Positions 49,981 to 57,407 of a DNA stretch of 64,000 nt are shown here, piece after piece. Both the position numbers and the translations under genes were made by a program. Source of the DNA: Escherichia coli O157:H7 (GTDB lineage: Bacteria > Pseudomonadota > Gammaproteobacteria > Enterobacterales > Enterobacteriaceae); assembly GCF_013167455.1 (NCBI RefSeq), contig NZ_CP038328.1. One strand, 5' to 3'. The number at the start of each line of letters is the position of its first letter. The first letter of the stretch is position 1. Below the pieces are notes generated by a model. It made no database searches. It saw only the letters and a program-made list of their open reading frames with translations, and was not told the origin of the DNA.

Positions 49981-51090
49981 ATGAACGAACAATCCCAGGC
50001 CAAATCACCAGAAGCCTTGCGCGCAATGGTCGCCGGGACACTGGCCAATTTTCAGCACCCAACCCTGAAGCATAACCTCACCACGCTGAAAGCGTTGCAC
50101 CATGTCGCCTGGATGGACGACACGTTGCATGTGGAACTGGTTATGCCATTCGTCTGGCATAGCGCGTTTGAAGAGTTAAAAGAGCAATGTAGCGCCGAAC
50201 TGCTGCGTATCACCGGGGCGAAAGCTATCGACTGGAAACTGTCGCACAATATCGCCACCTTAAAACGCGTGAAGAATCAGCCGGGTATTAATGGCGTGAA
50301 GAACATCATTGCGGTCAGTTCCGGTAAAGGCGGCGTGGGTAAATCCTCCACGGCGGTAAACCTGGCGCTGGCACTGGCGGCGGAAGGGGCGAAAGTCGGC
50401 ATTCTGGACGCCGATATCTACGGCCCATCAATTCCCACCATGCTGGGCGCAGAAAATCAGCGTCCAACTTCGCCGGACGGTACCCATATGGCACCGATTA
50501 TGTCTCATGGCCTGGCAACCAATTCAATTGGTTATCTGGTCACTGACGACAATGCGATGGTGTGGCGTGGACCGATGGCGAGCAAGGCGTTAATGCAGAT
50601 GTTGCAGGAAACCTTGTGGCCGGATCTCGACTATCTGGTGCTTGATATGCCGCCAGGCACCGGTGACATTCAATTGACGCTGGCGCAAAACATTCCAGTA
50701 ACTGGTGCAGTCGTGGTCACCACCCCGCAGGACATCGCGTTGATCGATGCGAAAAAAGGCATTGTGATGTTCGAGAAAGTCGAGGTTCCGGTGCTCGGTA
50801 TTGTCGAGAACATGAGTGTGCATATTTGCAGTAACTGTGGTCACCATGAACCGATTTTCGGTACCGGTGGTGCAGAGAAACTGGCTGAAAAATACCATAC
50901 ACAGCTGCTGGGGCAGATGCCGTTACACATCTCCTTACGTGAGGATCTCGATAAAGGCACGCCAACGGTTATCAGCCGTCCGGAGAGCGAATTTACCGCT
51001 ATCTACCGCCAGCTGGCTGACCGCGTTGCAGCTCAGCTCTACTGGCAGGGTGAAGTCATTCCAGGCGAGATTTCCTTCCGCGCGGTCTAA
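49981..51090 (+). CDS. apbC: Fe-S cluster carrier ATPase ApbC (Mrp)
   Basis: 369 aa from MNEQSQAKSPEAL...; P-loop SGKGGVGKSS; CxxC (CSNC) motif; divergent from metG. Confidence 0.9.
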   Translation: MNEQSQAKSPEALRAMVAGTLANFQHPTLKHNLTTLKALHHVAWMDDTLHVELVMPFVWHSAFEELKEQCSAELLRITGAKAIDWKLSHNIATLKRVKNQPGINGVKNIIAVSSGKGGVGKSSTAVNLALALAAEGAKVGILDADIYGPSIPTMLGAENQRPTSPDGTHMAPIMSHGLATNSIGYLVTDDNAMVWRGPMASKALMQMLQETLWPDLDYLVLDMPPGTGDIQLTLAQNIPVTGAVVVTTPQDIALIDAKKGIVMFEKVEVPVLGIVENMSVHICSNCGHHEPIFGTGGAEKLAEKYHTQLLGQMPLHISLREDLDKGTPTVISRPESEFTAIYRQLADRVAAQLYWQGEVIPGEISFRAV

Positions 51091-51351
51091 CGCCTATTAA
51101 CCATTCTGGTTATTCTTCATACACCGCAGAGATGTTATATTGATGCGGTGTATTTGTTTTTGCCGCATTAATGAACACTTATTTAATACTGCGAATATTC
51201 AGTGGATCTTAGTCCGAAACTGTACAAAGGCGATTGATTGTGCAACCACTGTCTCTTTATCATCCCTCGTGGCTGTGTAGCGGATGTACAGCTATAGTGT
51301 GTTATGCACTCAATCTACCCGGCATAACCTTTACTACAGGGATAACGTTCA

Positions 51352-51633
51352 ATGAATAAGTATTGGTTGTCAGGAGCTGTTTTTCTTGCTTATGGACTAG
51401 CATCACCCGCGTTCTCTTCTGATACTACAACATTAACCATCAATGGCAGAATTAGTTCCCCTACATGCAGTATGGATGTTGTTAATAATCATCTTCAGCA
51501 ACGTTGTGGGCAGTTGTTACAACGAGTTGAAACCAACTATCGTGCTTCTTCTACTGCAAAAGGCGTTACGACAGAAGTGGTAGCTGTGGGTAATAACGAC
51601 AAACGCAAAATCGTGTTAAATCGCTACGATTAA
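51352..51633 (+). CDS. yehE: YehE (93 aa, secreted, unknown function)
   Basis: Signal peptide; size and synteny next to the yeh fimbrial genes. Confidence 0.75.
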   Translation: MNKYWLSGAVFLAYGLASPAFSSDTTTLTINGRISSPTCSMDVVNNHLQQRCGQLLQRVETNYRASSTAKGVTTEVVAVGNNDKRKIVLNRYD

Positions 51634-51924
51634 TTTGCCAACACCGTTTTAAGCATATTTAAAAAGCCAAAATCATTCCTATGAATGATTTCGGCTTTTT
51701 TATTCATCCCATAAATGTTATTTACGGTAATTTACGGTAATTAATCAGTTTCAAAAATGTTTGTTATAGCGAATTATTTGTTGTATTTATATTGCATTAG
51801 TTAATTTGTTTTAAATCAACAAAACAATATGTTTACATTGCGGCAACCTTTTTGATGTGAGAAATTTGTTTCCAAGAGATACAGACTCTTAACAAAACAA
51901 AATAAACTTATTAAGGAATGCATC

Positions 51925-52467
51925 ATGAAACATTCAATTATTGCTGTCGCTGTCTTATCTTCTGTATTTATGAGTGCTGGTATTTTCGCTGCTGAAGTAG
52001 ATACCGGAACTTTAACCATTAAAGGTAATATTGCAGAATCACCATGTACATTTGTCGCTGGCGGTGATTCAGTCAGTATTAATATGCCGACTGTACCCAC
52101 CACTGTATTTGATGGTAAAGCGAAATATTCAACTTATGATGGCGCGGTTGGTGTAACCAGCAGTATGCTGAAAATTACTTGTCCGAAGACTATTGATGGC
52201 GTAAAACTTTCGTTGATCACCAACGAGAAAATTCTTGGTAATGATAAGGCAATATCCAGTAGTAATGACACAGTTGGATACTATCTCTATTTGGGAGATA
52301 GCAGTGACGTACTGGATATTTCCGCACCATTTAATATTGAAAGTTATAAAACTGCTGATGGACAATATGCAATACCGTTTAAGGCAAAATATCTGAAGTT
52401 GACTGACAGTGGTGTTGCATCTGGTACAGTTAACTCTTCATTGGTTATGCGTGTTGCCCAGGATTAA
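51925..52467 (+). CDS. yehD: Fimbrial major subunit-like protein YehD
   Basis: 180 aa with signal peptide; type 1 fimbrial subunit-like; synteny. Confidence 0.85.
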   Translation: MKHSIIAVAVLSSVFMSAGIFAAEVDTGTLTIKGNIAESPCTFVAGGDSVSINMPTVPTTVFDGKAKYSTYDGAVGVTSSMLKITCPKTIDGVKLSLITNEKILGNDKAISSSNDTVGYYLYLGDSSDVLDISAPFNIESYKTADGQYAIPFKAKYLKLTDSGVASGTVNSSLVMRVAQD

Positions 52468-52554
52468 ATATTTAAAATAATCATCTTGTTTTTTCAGTAA
52501 GTTAAAATGGCCGCCATATTCATGGCGGCCAGCATAAATATAAGAGGCATTAAG

Positions 52555-53229
52555 ATGAAAGGGTTATTATCTTTACTCATCTCTTCTATGATATTCCCCG
52601 TGCATGCCGGAATGGTTATTTTCGGGACCCGTATCATTTACCCGGCAGAGCAGAAAGAGGTCATGGTACAACTGATGAATCAGGGAAACCGCTCTTCGCT
52701 GATGCAGGCGTGGATTGATGATGGCGACACGTCTCTGCCGCCAGAAAAGATTCAGGTTCCTTTCATGTTAACGCCACCAGTAGTGAAAGTAGCGGCCAAT
52801 TCTGGGCAACAAATAAAAATTAAAATCATGCCTAATAAATTACCCAGTAATAAGGAAAGTATTTTTTATCTTAATGTTCTGGATATTCCACCGAATAGCC
52901 CAGAAGATGAAGGAAAGAATGCGTTAAAATTTGCCATGCAAAACAGAATCAAGTTGTTTTACCGACCTGCTGGTATTGCTCCGGTAAATAAAACGACTTT
53001 TAAAAAATTACGAGTGAGTCGTAGCGGTAATAACGTAGTCATAAAAAATGACTCGCCAAATTGGGTAACGATTTCTGATGTTAAGGCTAATAACGTCAAA
53101 GTGAATTATGAAACAATCATGATTGCACCACAAGAAAGTCAGAATGTTAGTGAAAAAAATAATAATGCGAATGGCTGGCAACTGACCATTATCGATGATC
53201 ACGGCAACTATATTAGTGACAAAATTTAA
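52555..53229 (+). CDS. yehC: Periplasmic fimbrial chaperone YehC (PapD-like)
   Basis: Start at ATG 52555 gives signal peptide MKGLLSLLISSMIFPVHA after an AAGAGG RBS; an upstream ATG (52507) lies inside a hairpin and is less likely. Confidence 0.8.
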   Translation: MKGLLSLLISSMIFPVHAGMVIFGTRIIYPAEQKEVMVQLMNQGNRSSLMQAWIDDGDTSLPPEKIQVPFMLTPPVVKVAANSGQQIKIKIMPNKLPSNKESIFYLNVLDIPPNSPEDEGKNALKFAMQNRIKLFYRPAGIAPVNKTTFKKLRVSRSGNNVVIKNDSPNWVTISDVKANNVKVNYETIMIAPQESQNVSEKNNNANGWQLTIIDDHGNYISDKI

Positions 53230-53244
53230 TTGCAGGAGCTGCCT

Positions 53245-55725
53245 ATGTTGAGAATGACCCCGCTTGCATCAGCAATAGTCGCGTTATTGCTCGGCATTGA
53301 AGCACATGCAGCAGAAGAAACCTTTGACACCCATTTTATGATGGGAGGAATGAAAGGTGAGCAAGTAACAAATTTGCGTCTTGATGATAATCAGCCTTTA
53401 CCTGGGCAGTACGACATTGATATTTATGTCAATAAACAATGGCGTGGAAAATATGAGATTATCGTCAAAGATAACCCACATGAAACTTGCCTGACGCGTG
53501 AAATTGTAAAGCGGTTAGGTATAAATAGCGATAATTTTGCACGCGAAAATCAGTGTTTAACATTTGAGCAACTTGTTCAGGGCGGAAGCTACTCCTGGGA
53601 TATTGGGATTTTTCGTTTGGATCTCGCTGTTCCGCAAGCCTGGGTTGAAGAGCTGGAAAATGGTTACGTTCCGCCAGAAAACTGGGAGCGGGGAATCAAT
53701 GCGTTTTATACGTCTTATTACGTAAGTCAGTATTACAGTGACTATAAAGCCTCGGGCAATAGTAAGAGCACTTATGTGCGTTTTAACAGTGGGCTAAATT
53801 TGCTGGGATGGCAGCTGCATTCAGATGCCAGTTTTAGCAAAACGGATAATAATCCTGGTGAGTGGAAAAGCAACACGCTGTATCTGGAGCATGGATTTTC
53901 TCAAATTCTCGGTACGCTGCGTATTGGTGATATGTACACCTCAGCCGATATATTTGATTCCGTTCGCTTCACCGGGGTTCGGTTATTTCGTGATATGCAG
54001 ATGTTGCCAAACTCGAAGCAAAATTTTACCCCACGGGTACAGGGGATTGCCCAGAGTAACGCGTTGGTAACTATTGAACAGAACGGTTTTGTCGTTTATC
54101 AGAAAGAGGTTCCACCAGGTCCGTTTTCGATTAGTGATTTGCAGTTAGCGGGCGGAGGGGCGGATCTTGATGTTAGTGTTAAGGAAGCCGATGGTTCTGT
54201 GACTACGTATCTGGTGCCTTATGCGGCAGTACCTAATATGCTGCAACCTGGTGTATCAAAATATGATTTTGCGGCAGGCCGTAGTCATATTGAAGGTGCG
54301 AGCAAGCAAAGTGATTTTGTCCAGGCGGGTTATCAGTATGGTTTTAATAATTTATTGACGCTGTATGGCGGCACGATGGTTGCTAATAATTACTATGCCT
54401 TTACCCTCGGAACAGGTTGGAACACGCGTATTGGCGCAATTTCAGTCGATGCAACTAAATCGCACAGTAAGCAAGACAATGGTGATGTGTTTGACGGACA
54501 AAGTTATCAAATTGCCTATAACAAATTTTTGAGCCAAACATCAACACGTTTTGGTCTGGCGGCCTGGCGTTATTCGTCGCGTGATTACCGCACATTTAAC
54601 GATTATGTGTGGGCAAATAATAAAGATAATTATCGTCGTGATAAAAACGATGTCTATGATATTGCCGATTATTACCAGAATGATTTTGGTCGCAAAAATA
54701 GCTTTTCCGCCAATATGAGTCAGTCATTGCCAGAAGGCTGGGGATCTGTGTCATTAAGTACTTTATGGCGTGATTACTGGGGGCGAAGCGGCAGTAGTAA
54801 AGATTATCAACTGAGTTATTCCAATAACTGGCGGCGGATAAGCTATACCCTCGCGGCAAGCCAGGCGTATGACGAGAACCACGCCGAAGAGAAACGCTTT
54901 AATATTTTTATATCGATTCCCTTTGACTGGGGCGATGACGTTACGACGCCGCGACGGCAAATATATATGTCTAACTCAACGACCTTTGATGATCAGGGTT
55001 TTGCTTCAAACAATACCGGATTATCGGGAACCGTTGGGAACCGCGATCAGTTTAACTATGGTATCAACTTGAGCCATCAACATCAGGGAAATGAAACGAC
55101 AGCTGGGGCCAATTTGACCTGGACCGCACCGGCCGCAACAGTGAATGGCAGCTATAGTCAGTCGAGTACTTATCGACAGGTCGGAGCCAGTGTTTCAGGG
55201 GGACTGGTTGCCTGGTCTGGTGGCGTTAATCTGGCGAACCGTCTTTCCGAAACGTTTGCTGTGATGCATGCGCCGGGAATCAAAGATGCTTATGTCAATG
55301 GGCAAAAATATCGTACAACAAACTGTAATGGTGTGGTGGTGTACGACGGACTGACACCTTATCGGGAAAATCACCTGATGATGGATGTGTCGCAAAGCGA
55401 TAGCGAAACAGAATTACGCGGGAACCGTAAAATGACCGCCCCTTATCGCGGCGCGGTCGTTCTGGTTGATTTTGATACCGATCAGCGTAAGCCCTGGTTT
55501 ATAAAAGCATTAAGATCCGATGGACAGCCATTAACGTTTGGTTATGAAGTCAATGATATGCATGGTCATAACATTGGTGTTGTCGGCCAGGGCAGTCAGA
55601 TATTTATTCGCACCAATGAAATACCGCCAGCGGTTAATGTGGCAATTGATAAGCAACAAGGGCTTTCATGCACAATCACCTTCGGTAAAGAGATTGATGA
55701 AAGTAAAAATTATATCTGTCGGTGA
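53245..55725 (+). CDS. yehB: Outer membrane fimbrial usher YehB
   Basis: 826 aa from MLRMTPLASAIVALLLG...; usher-size beta-barrel protein; synteny. Confidence 0.9.
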   Translation: MLRMTPLASAIVALLLGIEAHAAEETFDTHFMMGGMKGEQVTNLRLDDNQPLPGQYDIDIYVNKQWRGKYEIIVKDNPHETCLTREIVKRLGINSDNFARENQCLTFEQLVQGGSYSWDIGIFRLDLAVPQAWVEELENGYVPPENWERGINAFYTSYYVSQYYSDYKASGNSKSTYVRFNSGLNLLGWQLHSDASFSKTDNNPGEWKSNTLYLEHGFSQILGTLRIGDMYTSADIFDSVRFTGVRLFRDMQMLPNSKQNFTPRVQGIAQSNALVTIEQNGFVVYQKEVPPGPFSISDLQLAGGGADLDVSVKEADGSVTTYLVPYAAVPNMLQPGVSKYDFAAGRSHIEGASKQSDFVQAGYQYGFNNLLTLYGGTMVANNYYAFTLGTGWNTRIGAISVDATKSHSKQDNGDVFDGQSYQIAYNKFLSQTSTRFGLAAWRYSSRDYRTFNDYVWANNKDNYRRDKNDVYDIADYYQNDFGRKNSFSANMSQSLPEGWGSVSLSTLWRDYWGRSGSSKDYQLSYSNNWRRISYTLAASQAYDENHAEEKRFNIFISIPFDWGDDVTTPRRQIYMSNSTTFDDQGFASNNTGLSGTVGNRDQFNYGINLSHQHQGNETTAGANLTWTAPAATVNGSYSQSSTYRQVGASVSGGLVAWSGGVNLANRLSETFAVMHAPGIKDAYVNGQKYRTTNCNGVVVYDGLTPYRENHLMMDVSQSDSETELRGNRKMTAPYRGAVVLVDFDTDQRKPWFIKALRSDGQPLTFGYEVNDMHGHNIGVVGQGSQIFIRTNEIPPAVNVAIDKQQGLSCTITFGKEIDESKNYICR

Positions 55726-55735
55726 GAGGTGAAAT

Positions 55736-56770
55736 ATGATGTTCAGAAATAGAATATTACTAATATTTATATTGTGGGCTAATTTTACCTGGGCTGGGTG
55801 TCGTACTACTGCATCATTAAATATTACAGATGGTATTAATGTTGGGGAGATTTTAGCGAATGAAACTTCCTTTAGTAAAAGTGTCGTGTTTACTGGGATA
55901 TCTTGTGATACGAGCACGGATAAAATAGTTTATAAAAATATCCAAAGTGATTGGGTTGAAGTTGGGCCTTTTGGTAATGGCGAAAAATTAAAGGTTAAAA
56001 TAGAGTCTTTAGGTAAAACCAGCGACACAATTGGGAAATCCAGCAATGCGCAGGCAGTATTACCTTATGTGGTTAAAATAGCCAGAGGCACACCTGATTT
56101 TACTGGAGAAAGAAAATCTACCTGGTTTATTTCAGATACCGTGATTGCAAATATTGGCGGTGAGTCATCGTCATCCATCGATTTTTGGTTGGGTATTTGT
56201 AAGGCATTGAAGTTTAACTGGTGTGTGAATTATCTCACCAGCAAACTGGCGGGGGATACATTTACGCTTGGGTTAAATATTTCCTATTATCCTAAAAATA
56301 CGACCTGTAAGCCTGAAAACACCGTTATAAAAGTAGATGATATCGCCTTGTTCCAGCTCAGAAATCAGGGAAAGATTGCGGCGAACAGTAAGGAAGGAAC
56401 AATTACGTTGAAATGTGATAATCTTTTCGGCGACAAAAAACAAGCATCGCGGAATATGGTTGTATATCTTTCTAGCAGTGACTTAGTTAAAGGAAGTAAT
56501 ACTATTTTGCGTGGTAAAACAGATAATGGTGTAGGGTTTGTGTTGGATCTAACAGAACCACCAAAAGGGACTGAGGCTGCCATTAAAATTTCGGCCAACG
56601 GCGATCAGGGCGCGGCGACATCATTATGGAAAACAGATAAACCAGGAGTTTCATTAAATAGCAACATTATTAATATACCAGTCATGGCCAGTTACTATGT
56701 ATATGATGAAAAAAAAGTTAAATCTGGCGCACTGGAAGCAACCGCATTAATCAACGTGAAATACGATTAA
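55736..56770 (+). CDS. yehA: Fimbrial adhesin-like protein YehA
   Basis: 344 aa with signal peptide; last gene of the chaperone-usher operon. Confidence 0.8.
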   Translation: MMFRNRILLIFILWANFTWAGCRTTASLNITDGINVGEILANETSFSKSVVFTGISCDTSTDKIVYKNIQSDWVEVGPFGNGEKLKVKIESLGKTSDTIGKSSNAQAVLPYVVKIARGTPDFTGERKSTWFISDTVIANIGGESSSSIDFWLGICKALKFNWCVNYLTSKLAGDTFTLGLNISYYPKNTTCKPENTVIKVDDIALFQLRNQGKIAANSKEGTITLKCDNLFGDKKQASRNMVVYLSSSDLVKGSNTILRGKTDNGVGFVLDLTEPPKGTEAAIKISANGDQGAATSLWKTDKPGVSLNSNIINIPVMASYYVYDEKKVKSGALEATALINVKYD

Positions 56771-56826: not shown

Positions 56827-56853
56827 CCCCCTCTCTCCGAGGGGGCTTTTTTT
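56827..56853 (+). terminator. Rho-independent terminator after yehA (CCCCCTC-tctcc-GAGGGGG then T7)
   Basis: Seen in sequence. Confidence 0.6.
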
Positions 56854-57190
56854 AGCGATGATAAAAAATCTCACCGTCGTAGGCTTTAATGATTTTACCG
56901 TCGGTGTCGCTGATCAACACGTACGCGCCACCCATATAGGTCCAGTGCGTCCCGGCATCCGGCGCGGGCAGGTTACGCAACTGCCACTGCTTAATGTTGT
57001 ACTCATCGGTACGGTACATCTCTGGTACGGTGTCCCCTGGTTTGTAATGCTTAAAGTCAGCAATGAAACTGCTTAACTCATACTTAGAAATTCCCGAGGT
57101 ATTGGTCGAACCCGCGGTGGCTGGTGCGGCCCAGGCGGCACTGGTAACCAGCAAAAGCGCACCCAGCAACATCTTATTTTTAATGGTCAT
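56852..57190 (-). CDS. rcnB: Periplasmic nickel/cobalt homeostasis protein RcnB (YohN)
   Basis: 112 aa from MTIKNKMLLGALLLVTSAAWA; synteny with rcnA. Confidence 0.85.
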   Translation of the reverse strand: MTIKNKMLLGALLLVTSAAWAAPATAGSTNTSGISKYELSSFIADFKHYKPGDTVPEMYRTDEYNIKQWQLRNLPAPDAGTHWTYMGGAYVLISDTDGKIIKAYDGEIFYHR

Positions 57191-57407
57191 AAACTCTCCA
57201 CTTTGGGGATCTGTAATATCAGTCGCATATCTTTCCTGCCATACAATATAACTGACAAGCGATATTTTGTTAGTGATCCCATGATTTCGTAAAAAGTGTA
57301 AATGAAAGGATGTAGCAAAAGCATCCTCATTGAGCGAGAAGTGAGCGGAATAAGCTGATTTAAGAATCATCCTGGGCTAAAAGGATAGCGAAGCCCAGGT
57401 GATTGTT

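What the first reader, a model, noticed from the sequence alone, without database searches (positions are those of the whole stretch)
52508..52554. Stable hairpin between the fimbrial major-subunit gene yehD and the likely true start of chaperone yehC
A 9-bp stem (GGCCGCCAT / ATGGCGGCC, about 52509-52530) overlaps the first ATG of the long yehC ORF, while a better start with RBS and signal peptide is at 52555. The hairpin is more likely an intercistronic attenuator or stabiliser, as in other chaperone-usher operons, than coding sequence.
Basis: seen in the sequence. Interest (0 to 1): 0.25.

Follow-up and report, generated by a model that had tools for sequence, protein, structure and literature searches.

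The report
Conserved RNA hairpin after fimbrial subunit gene
A strong, evolutionarily maintained RNA hairpin sits in the untranslated gap between the fimbrial major-subunit gene (yehD) and the chaperone gene (yehC) of an E. coli O157-type yeh operon; it is an ordinary operon-internal element of a kind long known from other fimbrial operons, and the chaperone starts at the downstream ATG, as RefSeq already annotates.

Summary
A perfect 10-bp stem (52508-52517 / 52522-52531, loop ATTC, -19.4 kcal/mol) lies in the 87-nt gap between yehD (stop 52467) and yehC. Shuffles of the 64-kb window give about 0.33 such hairpins.

The hairpin is non-coding. RefSeq starts yehC at 52555. That ATG has a good Shine-Dalgarno (AAGAGG, -5.8 kcal/mol against -0.9 for 52507), an 18-aa signal peptide and an N-terminus shared by all 31 homologous loci. 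ATG52507 becomes CTG or TTG in sister species, and the in-frame extension is missing in two other E. coli-type alleles and in every non-Escherichia locus.

All 29 distinct subunit-chaperone gaps examined carry a GC-rich hairpin of differing sequence (median z -3.2). Compensatory changes occur, and G·U pairs favour the + strand RNA.

The K-12 allele has the same hairpin followed by UUUUAAUUU, a canonical intrinsic terminator. The window's allele (O157, E. albertii, E. whittamii) has no U tract on the + strand.

Most likely the hairpin marks the 3' boundary of the yehD message and raises yehD mRNA over yehCBA. In this allele it would act mainly as an exonuclease barrier and at most a weak terminator. 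It is a new member of a known kind, of low interest.

The parts
51925..52467 (+). yehD-type fimbrial major-subunit gene (180 aa), the cistron upstream of the hairpin
   Evidence: ORF; Pfam Fimbrial PF00419; annotated 'fimbrial protein' in the identical RefSeq genome
52468..52554 (+). 87-nt AT-rich (32% GC) yehD-yehC intercistronic region
   Evidence: MFE -22.9 against -11.7 in shuffles, z -4.3
52504..52507 (+). AAAA directly 5' of the stem; it reads as a T tract after the hairpin on the - strand
   Evidence: the - strand terminator-like hit; an A tract is present in all five window-type alleles
52508..52517 (+). 5' arm of the hairpin, TGGCCGCCAT
52518..52521 (+). tetraloop ATTC
52522..52531 (+). 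3' arm of the hairpin, ATGGCGGCCA
   Evidence: compensatory changes at alignment pairs 27-52, 30-49 and 33-46
52532..52541 (+). tail GCATAAATAT, where a terminator's U tract would lie; only 2 T in the first 8 nt. The K-12 allele has TTTTAATTT here.
52507..52554 (+). 16-codon in-frame extension of the long ORF (MAAIFMAASINIRGIK); judged not translated
52542..52547 (+). Shine-Dalgarno AAGAGG of yehC, 7 nt before the ATG; invariant in all Escherichia alleles
52555..53229 (+). yehC-type periplasmic chaperone CDS (224 aa) as annotated by RefSeq. The signal peptide MKGLLSLLISSMIFPVHA is encoded by 52555-52608.
53245..55725 (+). yehB-type usher gene (context: downstream cistron)
55736..56770 (+). yehA-type last gene of the operon (344 aa)
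56827..56853 (+). canonical operon-end terminator CCCCCTC-TCTCC-GAGGGGG-C-TTTTTTT

Best explanation
The element is a non-coding stem-loop formed by the + strand transcript of a yehDCBA-type chaperone-usher fimbrial operon (O157:H7-type allele). It lies 40 nt after the stop of the major-subunit gene yehD and 23 nt before the real start of the chaperone gene yehC (52555).

Its most likely role is to define a protected 3' end for the yehD part of the message. That would let the major subunit, needed in large excess, have more mRNA than the chaperone, usher and tip protein.

In the common K-12-type allele the homologous hairpin is followed by UUUUAAUUU and should act as a partial intrinsic terminator, as the papA-papH terminator does. 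The allele in this window has no U tract. Here the hairpin is expected to terminate poorly. It would work mainly as a barrier to 3'->5' exonucleases after downstream cleavage or termination, in the manner of malE-malF.

Shown here: the existence, stability, non-coding status, conservation and covariation of the hairpin, and its strand preference in relatives. Inferred: that it changes the yehD:yehCBA mRNA ratio, and by which route.
For: Structure and chance.

Non-coding status and true start.

Conservation:
- All 31 Enterobacteriaceae yeh/stc-like loci have a GC-rich hairpin (6-13 bp, -11 to -23 kcal/mol) in a gap of 47-114 nt, with unrelated stem sequences.
- All 29 distinct gaps fold better than their shuffles, with median z -3.2.
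- Several distant loci (Canicola, Luteibacter, Bordetella, Collimonas) have one as well.

Covariation:
- In the Escherichia alignment 94% of cells are paired. Three pairs change on both sides, against none or one in the slid controls.
- In the Citrobacter/Salmonella group 97.5% are paired, with one compensatory pair.

Strand: 12 G·U cells are compatible only with the + strand RNA. Three A·C cells lie at helix ends.

Operon context: this is the strongest local hairpin in 51.1-58.9 kb and the only strong intergenic one inside yehDCBA. A canonical terminator follows yehA.

The K-12 allele has a U tract. Its terminator score d is +8, against -38 for the window (the formula was recalled from memory).

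Precedents:
- A partial terminator lies between papA and papH (PMC6524683).
- fimA mRNA is about 8-fold above fimI and about 12-fold above fimC (PMC10673952).
- 3' protective structures reshape operon stoichiometry, as in malEFG and papBA (PMC5927463).
Against: There are no transcript, 3'-end or half-life data for yeh in any strain. The operon is H-NS-silenced in the laboratory, and yehD is absent from the 3'-end tables that could be searched.

The window allele lacks the U tract on the + strand, so the terminator reading fails for this allele. Its T tract is on the - strand instead.

The covariation sample is small and the sequences are related by descent. The window-type stems contain no G·U pair, so for this allele itself the transcribed strand is not discriminated.
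Confidence: 0.6

Rival explanations
1. Partial intrinsic terminator (attenuator) on the + strand in this allele too. RNA polymerase would stop at the hairpin despite the poor U tract, lowering transcription of yehCBA.
For: The stem is strong and GC-rich. The homologous K-12 element is canonical. About half of the related loci have at least 4 T in the first 8 nt after the stem. There is the pap precedent.
Against: The tail GCAUAAAUAU has 2 U in 8. Its T-tract score is 0.23 against 3.3 in K-12, and d is -38. The + strand scan did not call it. E. coli intrinsic terminators depend on the U tract (established knowledge; PMC6407284 abstract).
Confidence: 0.15
2. Terminator for the - strand. In this allele the hairpin plus TTTTAACT would stop antisense transcripts that arise inside AT-rich yehCBA before they enter yehD and its promoter region.
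For: The scan calls it a - strand terminator. d(-) is +13 for the window and -1 to +19 in all five window-type alleles, while d(+) is -38 to -46. The A tract 5' of the stem is kept in E. albertii, E. whittamii and two Escherichia sp..
Against: No gene converges on the site. Promoter-like sites on the - strand occur no more often than chance (8 found against 9.5 expected). In relatives the G·U pairs fit the + strand only, and their - strand scores are strongly negative. The gap is AT-rich, so a short A run is weak evidence, and the five alleles are not independent.
Confidence: 0.08
3. 5' protective structure or ribosome-binding-site insulator for yehCBA. RNase E would cut in the AU-rich stretch 52468-52507, and the hairpin would then cap the 5' end of the downstream message (as in papBA) or keep the Shine-Dalgarno free of upstream pairing.
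For: The distance from the hairpin to the chaperone ATG is nearly constant (19-29 nt in 29 of 31 loci). The distance from the stop codon to the hairpin varies from 2 to 44 nt. The papBA model of a 5' hairpin downstream of an RNase E cut is described in PMC5927463.
Against: The constant distance is also what a compact hairpin + U tract + SD + spacer arrangement gives. Many loci place the hairpin 2-7 nt after the stop, which leaves no room for a cut between the stop and the hairpin. This role would stabilise the low-demand cistrons, which runs against the stoichiometric need.
Confidence: 0.08
4. Coding sequence: translation of YehC starts at ATG52507 (240 aa), and the palindrome is incidental.
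For: The frame is open from 52507. The K-12 allele also keeps an in-frame ATG 15 codons upstream. Older GenBank records and Swiss-Prot YEHC_ECOLI use the long form.
Against: - There is no SD (-0.9 kcal/mol).
- The start codon and codons 2-8 sit in a -19 kcal/mol stem.
- The ATG is CTG in E. whittamii and TTG in E. albertii.
- There is no in-frame start in E. coli-type alleles L005 and L006 or in any of the 23 non-Escherichia loci.
- The extension's amino acids differ between alleles (IFMAASINI against IPWRPFNL), whereas base pairing is kept.
- RefSeq uses 52555.
Confidence: 0.03
5. Functionless palindrome: a decaying relic of a K-12-type terminator, or a chance or mobile palindrome.
For: The U tract is absent. 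No experimental data exist.
Against: The stem is perfect, and compensatory changes maintain it within the lineage that lacks the U tract (whittamii GGCC->GACC with GGCC->GGTC; MOD1-EC7003 CGCC->CACC with GGCG->GGTG). It is not repeated: one copy in the window and a median of one place per genome. Chance expectation is about 5e-4 for this gap.
Confidence: 0.06

Closest known systems
papA-papH partial transcription terminator of the P-pilus operon (Baga et al. 1985, as summarised in PMC6524683)
   Same: A stem-loop lies directly after the major pilin gene of a chaperone-usher operon, ahead of the low-abundance assembly genes. It is thought to give excess major-subunit mRNA. The K-12 yeh allele has the full hairpin-plus-U-tract anatomy.
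   Different: The window's allele has no U tract on the + strand. No transcript mapping exists for yeh. The gene after the hairpin is the chaperone, not a minor pilin.
Intercistronic 3' protective hairpins (malE-malF REP, puf decay terminator; genome-wide in PMC5927463)
   Same: A stable stem-loop lies 3' of the cistron needed in excess, inside a polycistronic message. It does not need a U tract. Conservation is of structure rather than sequence.
   Different: It is not a REP element (single copy, no REP consensus). The protection has not been tested. Most protective structures found by Dar and Sorek lie inside the downstream coding region, whereas this one is intergenic.
Canonical Rho-independent terminator
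   Same: It has a GC-rich 10-bp stem, a tetraloop and a position downstream of a stop codon. On the - strand it is followed by TTTTAACT.
   Different: On the strand that carries the genes the tail is GCAUAAAUAU, so the defining U tract is missing.

Membership tests
Intrinsic (Rho-independent) terminator, + strand | GC-rich stem-loop of about 5-14 bp with a short loop | tested here: met
   10 bp, 7 GC pairs, loop of 4, -19.4 kcal/mol
Intrinsic (Rho-independent) terminator, + strand | U-rich tract of about 7-9 nt immediately 3' of the stem | tested here: not met
   The tail GCATAAATAT has 2 T in 8, and the + strand scan made no call. The feature is met in the K-12-type allele (TTTTAATTT).
Intrinsic (Rho-independent) terminator, + strand | RNA 3' ends at the U tract in vivo or in vitro | not testable with these tools
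   yehD is not in the 3'-end tables that could be searched. Other supplements are not held.
Intrinsic terminator, - strand | Hairpin followed by a T tract on the - strand, plus transcription entering from that side | tested here: inconclusive
   The hairpin and TTTTAACT are present. There is no convergent gene and no excess of - strand promoter-like sites.
Intercistronic 3' protective (decay-terminator) hairpin | Stable, conserved stem-loop 3' of the cistron required in excess, within one transcription unit | tested here: met
   The stoichiometric need of the major subunit follows from established chaperone-usher biology and from PMC10673952.
Intercistronic 3' protective (decay-terminator) hairpin | Longer half-life or higher level of the upstream segment, with 3' ends at the base of the hairpin | not testable with these tools
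   No expression data are available.
REP/BIME repetitive extragenic palindromes | Many dispersed copies per genome sharing a consensus | tested here: not met
   One copy in the 64-kb window at up to 3 mismatches, apart from one weak chance-level hit. The surrounding 451 nt occur a median of once per genome.
Protein-coding N-terminal extension of YehC | Conserved start codon with SD, and amino-acid conservation of the extension | tested here: not met
Any curated Rfam family | Covariance-model match at or near the gathering score | tested here: not met
   Only chance-level hits (E > 1) in 51000-54000

The most novel reading that the evidence does not exclude
The two E. coli yeh alleles differ in how the same conserved hairpin is wired. 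In the K-12 type it is a + strand attenuator. In the O157/E. albertii type the U tract sits on the opposite strand. The + strand would then read through fully into yehCBA, with the hairpin only stabilising yehD mRNA, while antisense transcription from the H-NS-silenced AT-rich assembly genes is blocked before it reaches yehD. This would be an allele-specific switch in operon polarity and subunit:assembly-machinery stoichiometry, at a locus now linked to gut and plant-pectin adherence.
Probability: 0.1. Interest if true: 0.35.

Novelty: new member of a known kind. Interest (0 to 1): 0.15.

Why it matters
The finding settles a start-codon disagreement. The GenBank MG1655 record, Swiss-Prot YEHC_ECOLI and older O157 records carry a 15-16 residue N-terminal extension that is really an RNA hairpin; RefSeq is right.

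It also shows that the Yeh/Stc (gamma-4) fimbrial operons share the architecture described for pap and fim: major-subunit gene, then hairpin, then assembly genes.

The difference between the K-12-type allele (with U tract) and the O157-type allele (without) gives a simple, testable handle on how much termination and how much RNA protection each contribute to subunit stoichiometry. Beyond that it is an ordinary operon feature.

Tried and rejected
- Rfam scan of 51000-54000 at E<=10 gave only chance hits.
- The repeat finder with a 6-nt seed did not report the hairpin at all, so it was verified by reading and folding instead.
- The MFE fold of the 111-nt context suggested a long-range helix, 52481-52488 with 52551-52558, that would bury the yehC AUG. 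I rejected it because the 5' strand is not conserved even in E. whittamii (ATCAATTTT against ATCATCTTG) or in K-12.
- Searches for experimental 3' ends found nothing. Adams et al. 2021 supplements have no yehD, yehC or yehE. Supplements of Dar and Sorek 2018 and of the EHEC Term-seq paper are not held.
- Literature searches for yehD with terminator, sRNA or Term-seq found nothing specific. The riboswitch-entropy paper lists regions upstream and downstream of the operon, not this gap.
- A metagenome scan with the window-type tail plus SD pattern gave 6 loci, all identical to the window or to E. albertii, so no new covariation.
- A palindromic protein-binding site was rejected because stems in orthologous loci share complementarity but not sequence.
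- A REP or mobile palindrome was rejected because the element is single-copy.

Full report
**What is there**

The window carries a yehE-yehDCBA-type chaperone-usher fimbrial locus next to apbC and metG. The genes are:
- yehD-type major subunit, 51925-52467 (Pfam Fimbrial)
- chaperone, with PapD_N and PapD_C domains
- usher, 53245-55725
- yehA-type last gene, 55736-56770

Between the yehD stop and the chaperone lies an 87-nt gap of 32% GC. It contains TGGCCGCCAT-ATTC-ATGGCGGCCA at 52508-52531. This is a perfect 10-bp stem with 7 GC pairs and a tetraloop. Alone it folds at -19.4 kcal/mol. In its 111-nt context the fold has z = -5.75 against dinucleotide shuffles.

Hairpins of this quality (at least 10 bp perfect, loop 3-8, at least 5 GC) occur 4 times in the 64-kb window. 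Shuffles give 0.33. The element is single-copy in the window, and the surrounding 451 nt occur once per E. coli genome.

**Where the window comes from**

- The 451 nt around the site are at least 99% identical in 367 of 5426 complete E. coli genomes. They are only 60-80% identical in 4902 others, K-12 included.
- The exact long ORF product occurs in O157:H7 records.
- The window also carries the tandem OrzO-P antitoxin RNAs.

So this is the O157-type allele of the yeh locus. It is about 78% identical in DNA to the K-12 allele.

**Coding or not**

Several lines point to 52555 as the start.
- RefSeq/PGAP starts the chaperone at the position equivalent to 52555 in an identical genome, and at the homologous ATG in K-12 (224 aa).
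- The long form survives in the GenBank MG1655 record, in Swiss-Prot YEHC_ECOLI (239 aa) and in a few O157 records (240 aa). The short form is on at least 1000 contigs.
- ATG52555 has AAGAGG 7 nt upstream. Its anti-SD duplex is -5.8 kcal/mol, against -0.9 for ATG52507 and -1.5 for the in-frame ATG52522. Both of those ATGs lie in the stem.
- The short product begins with an 18-aa signal peptide, MKGLLSLLISSMIFPVHA. The PapD_N domain starts immediately after it, at residue 35 of the long ORF.
- All 31 homologous loci from Escherichia, Salmonella, Citrobacter, Klebsiella, Superficieibacter and others start MK... at the aligned ATG, with a Shine-Dalgarno sequence.
- An in-frame upstream ATG exists only in some Escherichia alleles. 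It is absent from two other E. coli-type alleles (L005, L006), where loop indels shift the frame, and from all non-Escherichia loci.
- ATG52507 is CTG in E. whittamii and TTG in E. albertii. In both cases the change adds a base pair to the stem.
- The extension's amino acids differ between alleles (IFMAASINI against IPWRPFNL), while the pairing is kept.

The extension is therefore an artefact of a palindrome that contains ATGG/CCAT.

**Is the hairpin selected**

The evidence says yes.
- Every one of the 31 Enterobacteriaceae loci has a GC-rich hairpin in the subunit-chaperone gap. Stems are 6-13 bp and energies -11 to -23 kcal/mol. The stem sequences are unrelated, for example GGCCGCCAT, ACCGGCAGTA, TCGGCGGC and ATGCCGGCAACC.
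- All 29 distinct gaps fold better than their shuffles. The median z is -3.2, and 16 of 29 have z at or below -3.
- Several distant loci (Canicola, Luteibacter, Bordetella, Collimonas) show the same feature.
- In the alignable Escherichia set, an 11-pair helix is 94% paired. Three pairs change on both sides (GC->AU at two positions, CG/UA at the outer pair). The slid controls show none, or one in a single case.
- A second alignable group (Citrobacter, S. diarizonae, second Escherichia locus) is 97.5% paired, with one compensatory pair.
- Non-Watson-Crick cells are mostly G·U as read on the + strand (12 cells). Only 3 A·C cells would be G·U on the - strand, and these lie at helix ends.

This favours a structure in the + strand RNA over a DNA cruciform or a - strand RNA. 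The window-type stems themselves contain no wobble pair. The samples are small and related by descent, so these counts are supportive, not proof.

**Terminator or not**

- The K-12-type allele reads GGCCGCUAU-CCC-AUGGCGGCC-UUUUAAUUU, a textbook intrinsic terminator.
- The window-type allele is shared with E. albertii, E. whittamii and two Escherichia sp. It reads ...GGCCA-GCAUAAAUAU, with 2 U in the first 8 nt. It has AAAA before the stem.
- A d'Aubenton-Carafa-style score (formula recalled from memory, so indicative only) gives the following:

| Allele | d, + strand | d, - strand |
|---|---|---|
| K-12 | +8 | -43 |
| window | -38 | +13 |

- The simple consensus scan likewise calls the site only on the - strand.
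- Across the family, roughly half of the loci have a U-rich tail and half do not.
- The hairpin is kept, with compensatory changes, inside the lineage that lacks the U tract.

The conserved property is therefore the stem-loop itself. A U tract is an optional addition.

**Operon context**

- Scanning 51.1-58.9 kb with 36-nt windows, this is the strongest local hairpin on the + strand apart from one inside a downstream gene on the other strand. It is the only strong intergenic one inside yehDCBA.
- yehE has its own hairpin with flanking A and T tracts (51661-51700).
- yehA is followed by a canonical terminator (56827-56853).

The transcription unit yehDCBA thus has exactly one internal structured element, placed right after the gene whose product is needed in excess.

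**Most likely mechanism**

The following is inferred. The hairpin defines a protected 3' end for the yehD segment.
- In K-12-type alleles this would happen by partial intrinsic termination. The terminator between papA and papH does this (Baga 1985, as summarised in PMC6524683).
- In the window's allele it would happen mainly by blocking 3'->5' exonucleases after downstream cleavage or Rho-dependent termination. The malE-malF structure and many others work this way (PMC5927463).
- The expected outcome is a yehD mRNA excess. The type 1 pilus operon shows an 8-12-fold fimA excess (PMC10673952).

Nothing about yeh transcripts could be found. The operon is silent in laboratory K-12, and yehD is absent from the accessible 3'-end tables.

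**Rivals**

In order of weight:
- weak + strand termination despite the missing U tract
- a - strand terminator against antisense transcription (anatomy fits, but there is no evidence of such transcription)
- a 5' cap or RBS insulator for the yehCBA message. This was suggested by the nearly constant 19-29 nt from hairpin to ATG, but a compact hairpin/U-tract/SD layout explains that equally well.
- a functionless relic
- coding sequence

A sequence-specific protein site and a REP element were excluded.

**Verdict**

The start-codon point is already settled in RefSeq. A hairpin after the major-pilin gene is a long-known design, although I found no paper describing it for yeh. It is a new member of a known kind, of low interest. 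The modest new point is the allele difference in U-tract placement.

Noticed in passing
window 35690-36691: A tandem duplication of about 610 nt carries two matches to the OrzO-P antitoxin RNA family on the - strand (35721-35796, 99.9 bits; 36332-36405, 88.8 bits). This is the zorO/orzO-type type I toxin-antitoxin pair typical of O157:H7. Each copy ends near a perfect 9-bp hairpin AAGGGGGAA...TTCCCCCTT (36153-36176 and 36762-36785).
   Followed up: partly
window 28484-28509: A perfect 10-bp hairpin GGCGGCCATG-CGCAAA-CATGGCCGCC lies between convergent ORFs 27947-28474 (+) and 28516-28989 (-). It is built from the same 9-mers as the yehD/yehC hairpin arms but in swapped order. No T tract lies on either side.
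   Followed up: no
window 51661-51700: The DUF2574 gene yehE (51352-51633) is followed by its own long hairpin, flanked by AAAAA and TTTTTT (bidirectional-terminator anatomy). This implies that yehD has a separate promoter in the 291-nt gap 51634-51924.
   Followed up: partly
window 56827-56853: A canonical terminator CCCCCTC-TCTCC-GAGGGGG-C-TTTTTTT follows the yehA stop. It is shared with the convergent ORF 56852-57370 on the - strand.
   Followed up: partly
window 52507-52554; L002 2701-2745: Databases disagree on YehC length. GenBank MG1655 (AAC75171.1) and Swiss-Prot YEHC_ECOLI carry 239 aa, and some O157 records carry 240 aa. RefSeq WP_ proteins have 224 aa.
   Followed up: yes
L023 2957-2978; L025 2958-2979: E. 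whittamii and Escherichia sp. E1V33 each carry a second yeh-like operon (chaperone 53-54% identical) with its own subunit-chaperone hairpin. It may be the 'Yhl' pilus described in PMC12778044. Between the two, the hairpin shows a compensatory GC->AU change.
   Followed up: partly
L008-L016 (e.g. L013 hairpin 2 nt after the stop): In many Salmonella and Citrobacter loci the hairpin starts only 2-7 nt after the major-subunit stop codon. A terminating ribosome would then cover its 5' arm, so translation of the subunit gene could modulate hairpin formation there. In Escherichia the distance is 36-44 nt.
   Followed up: no
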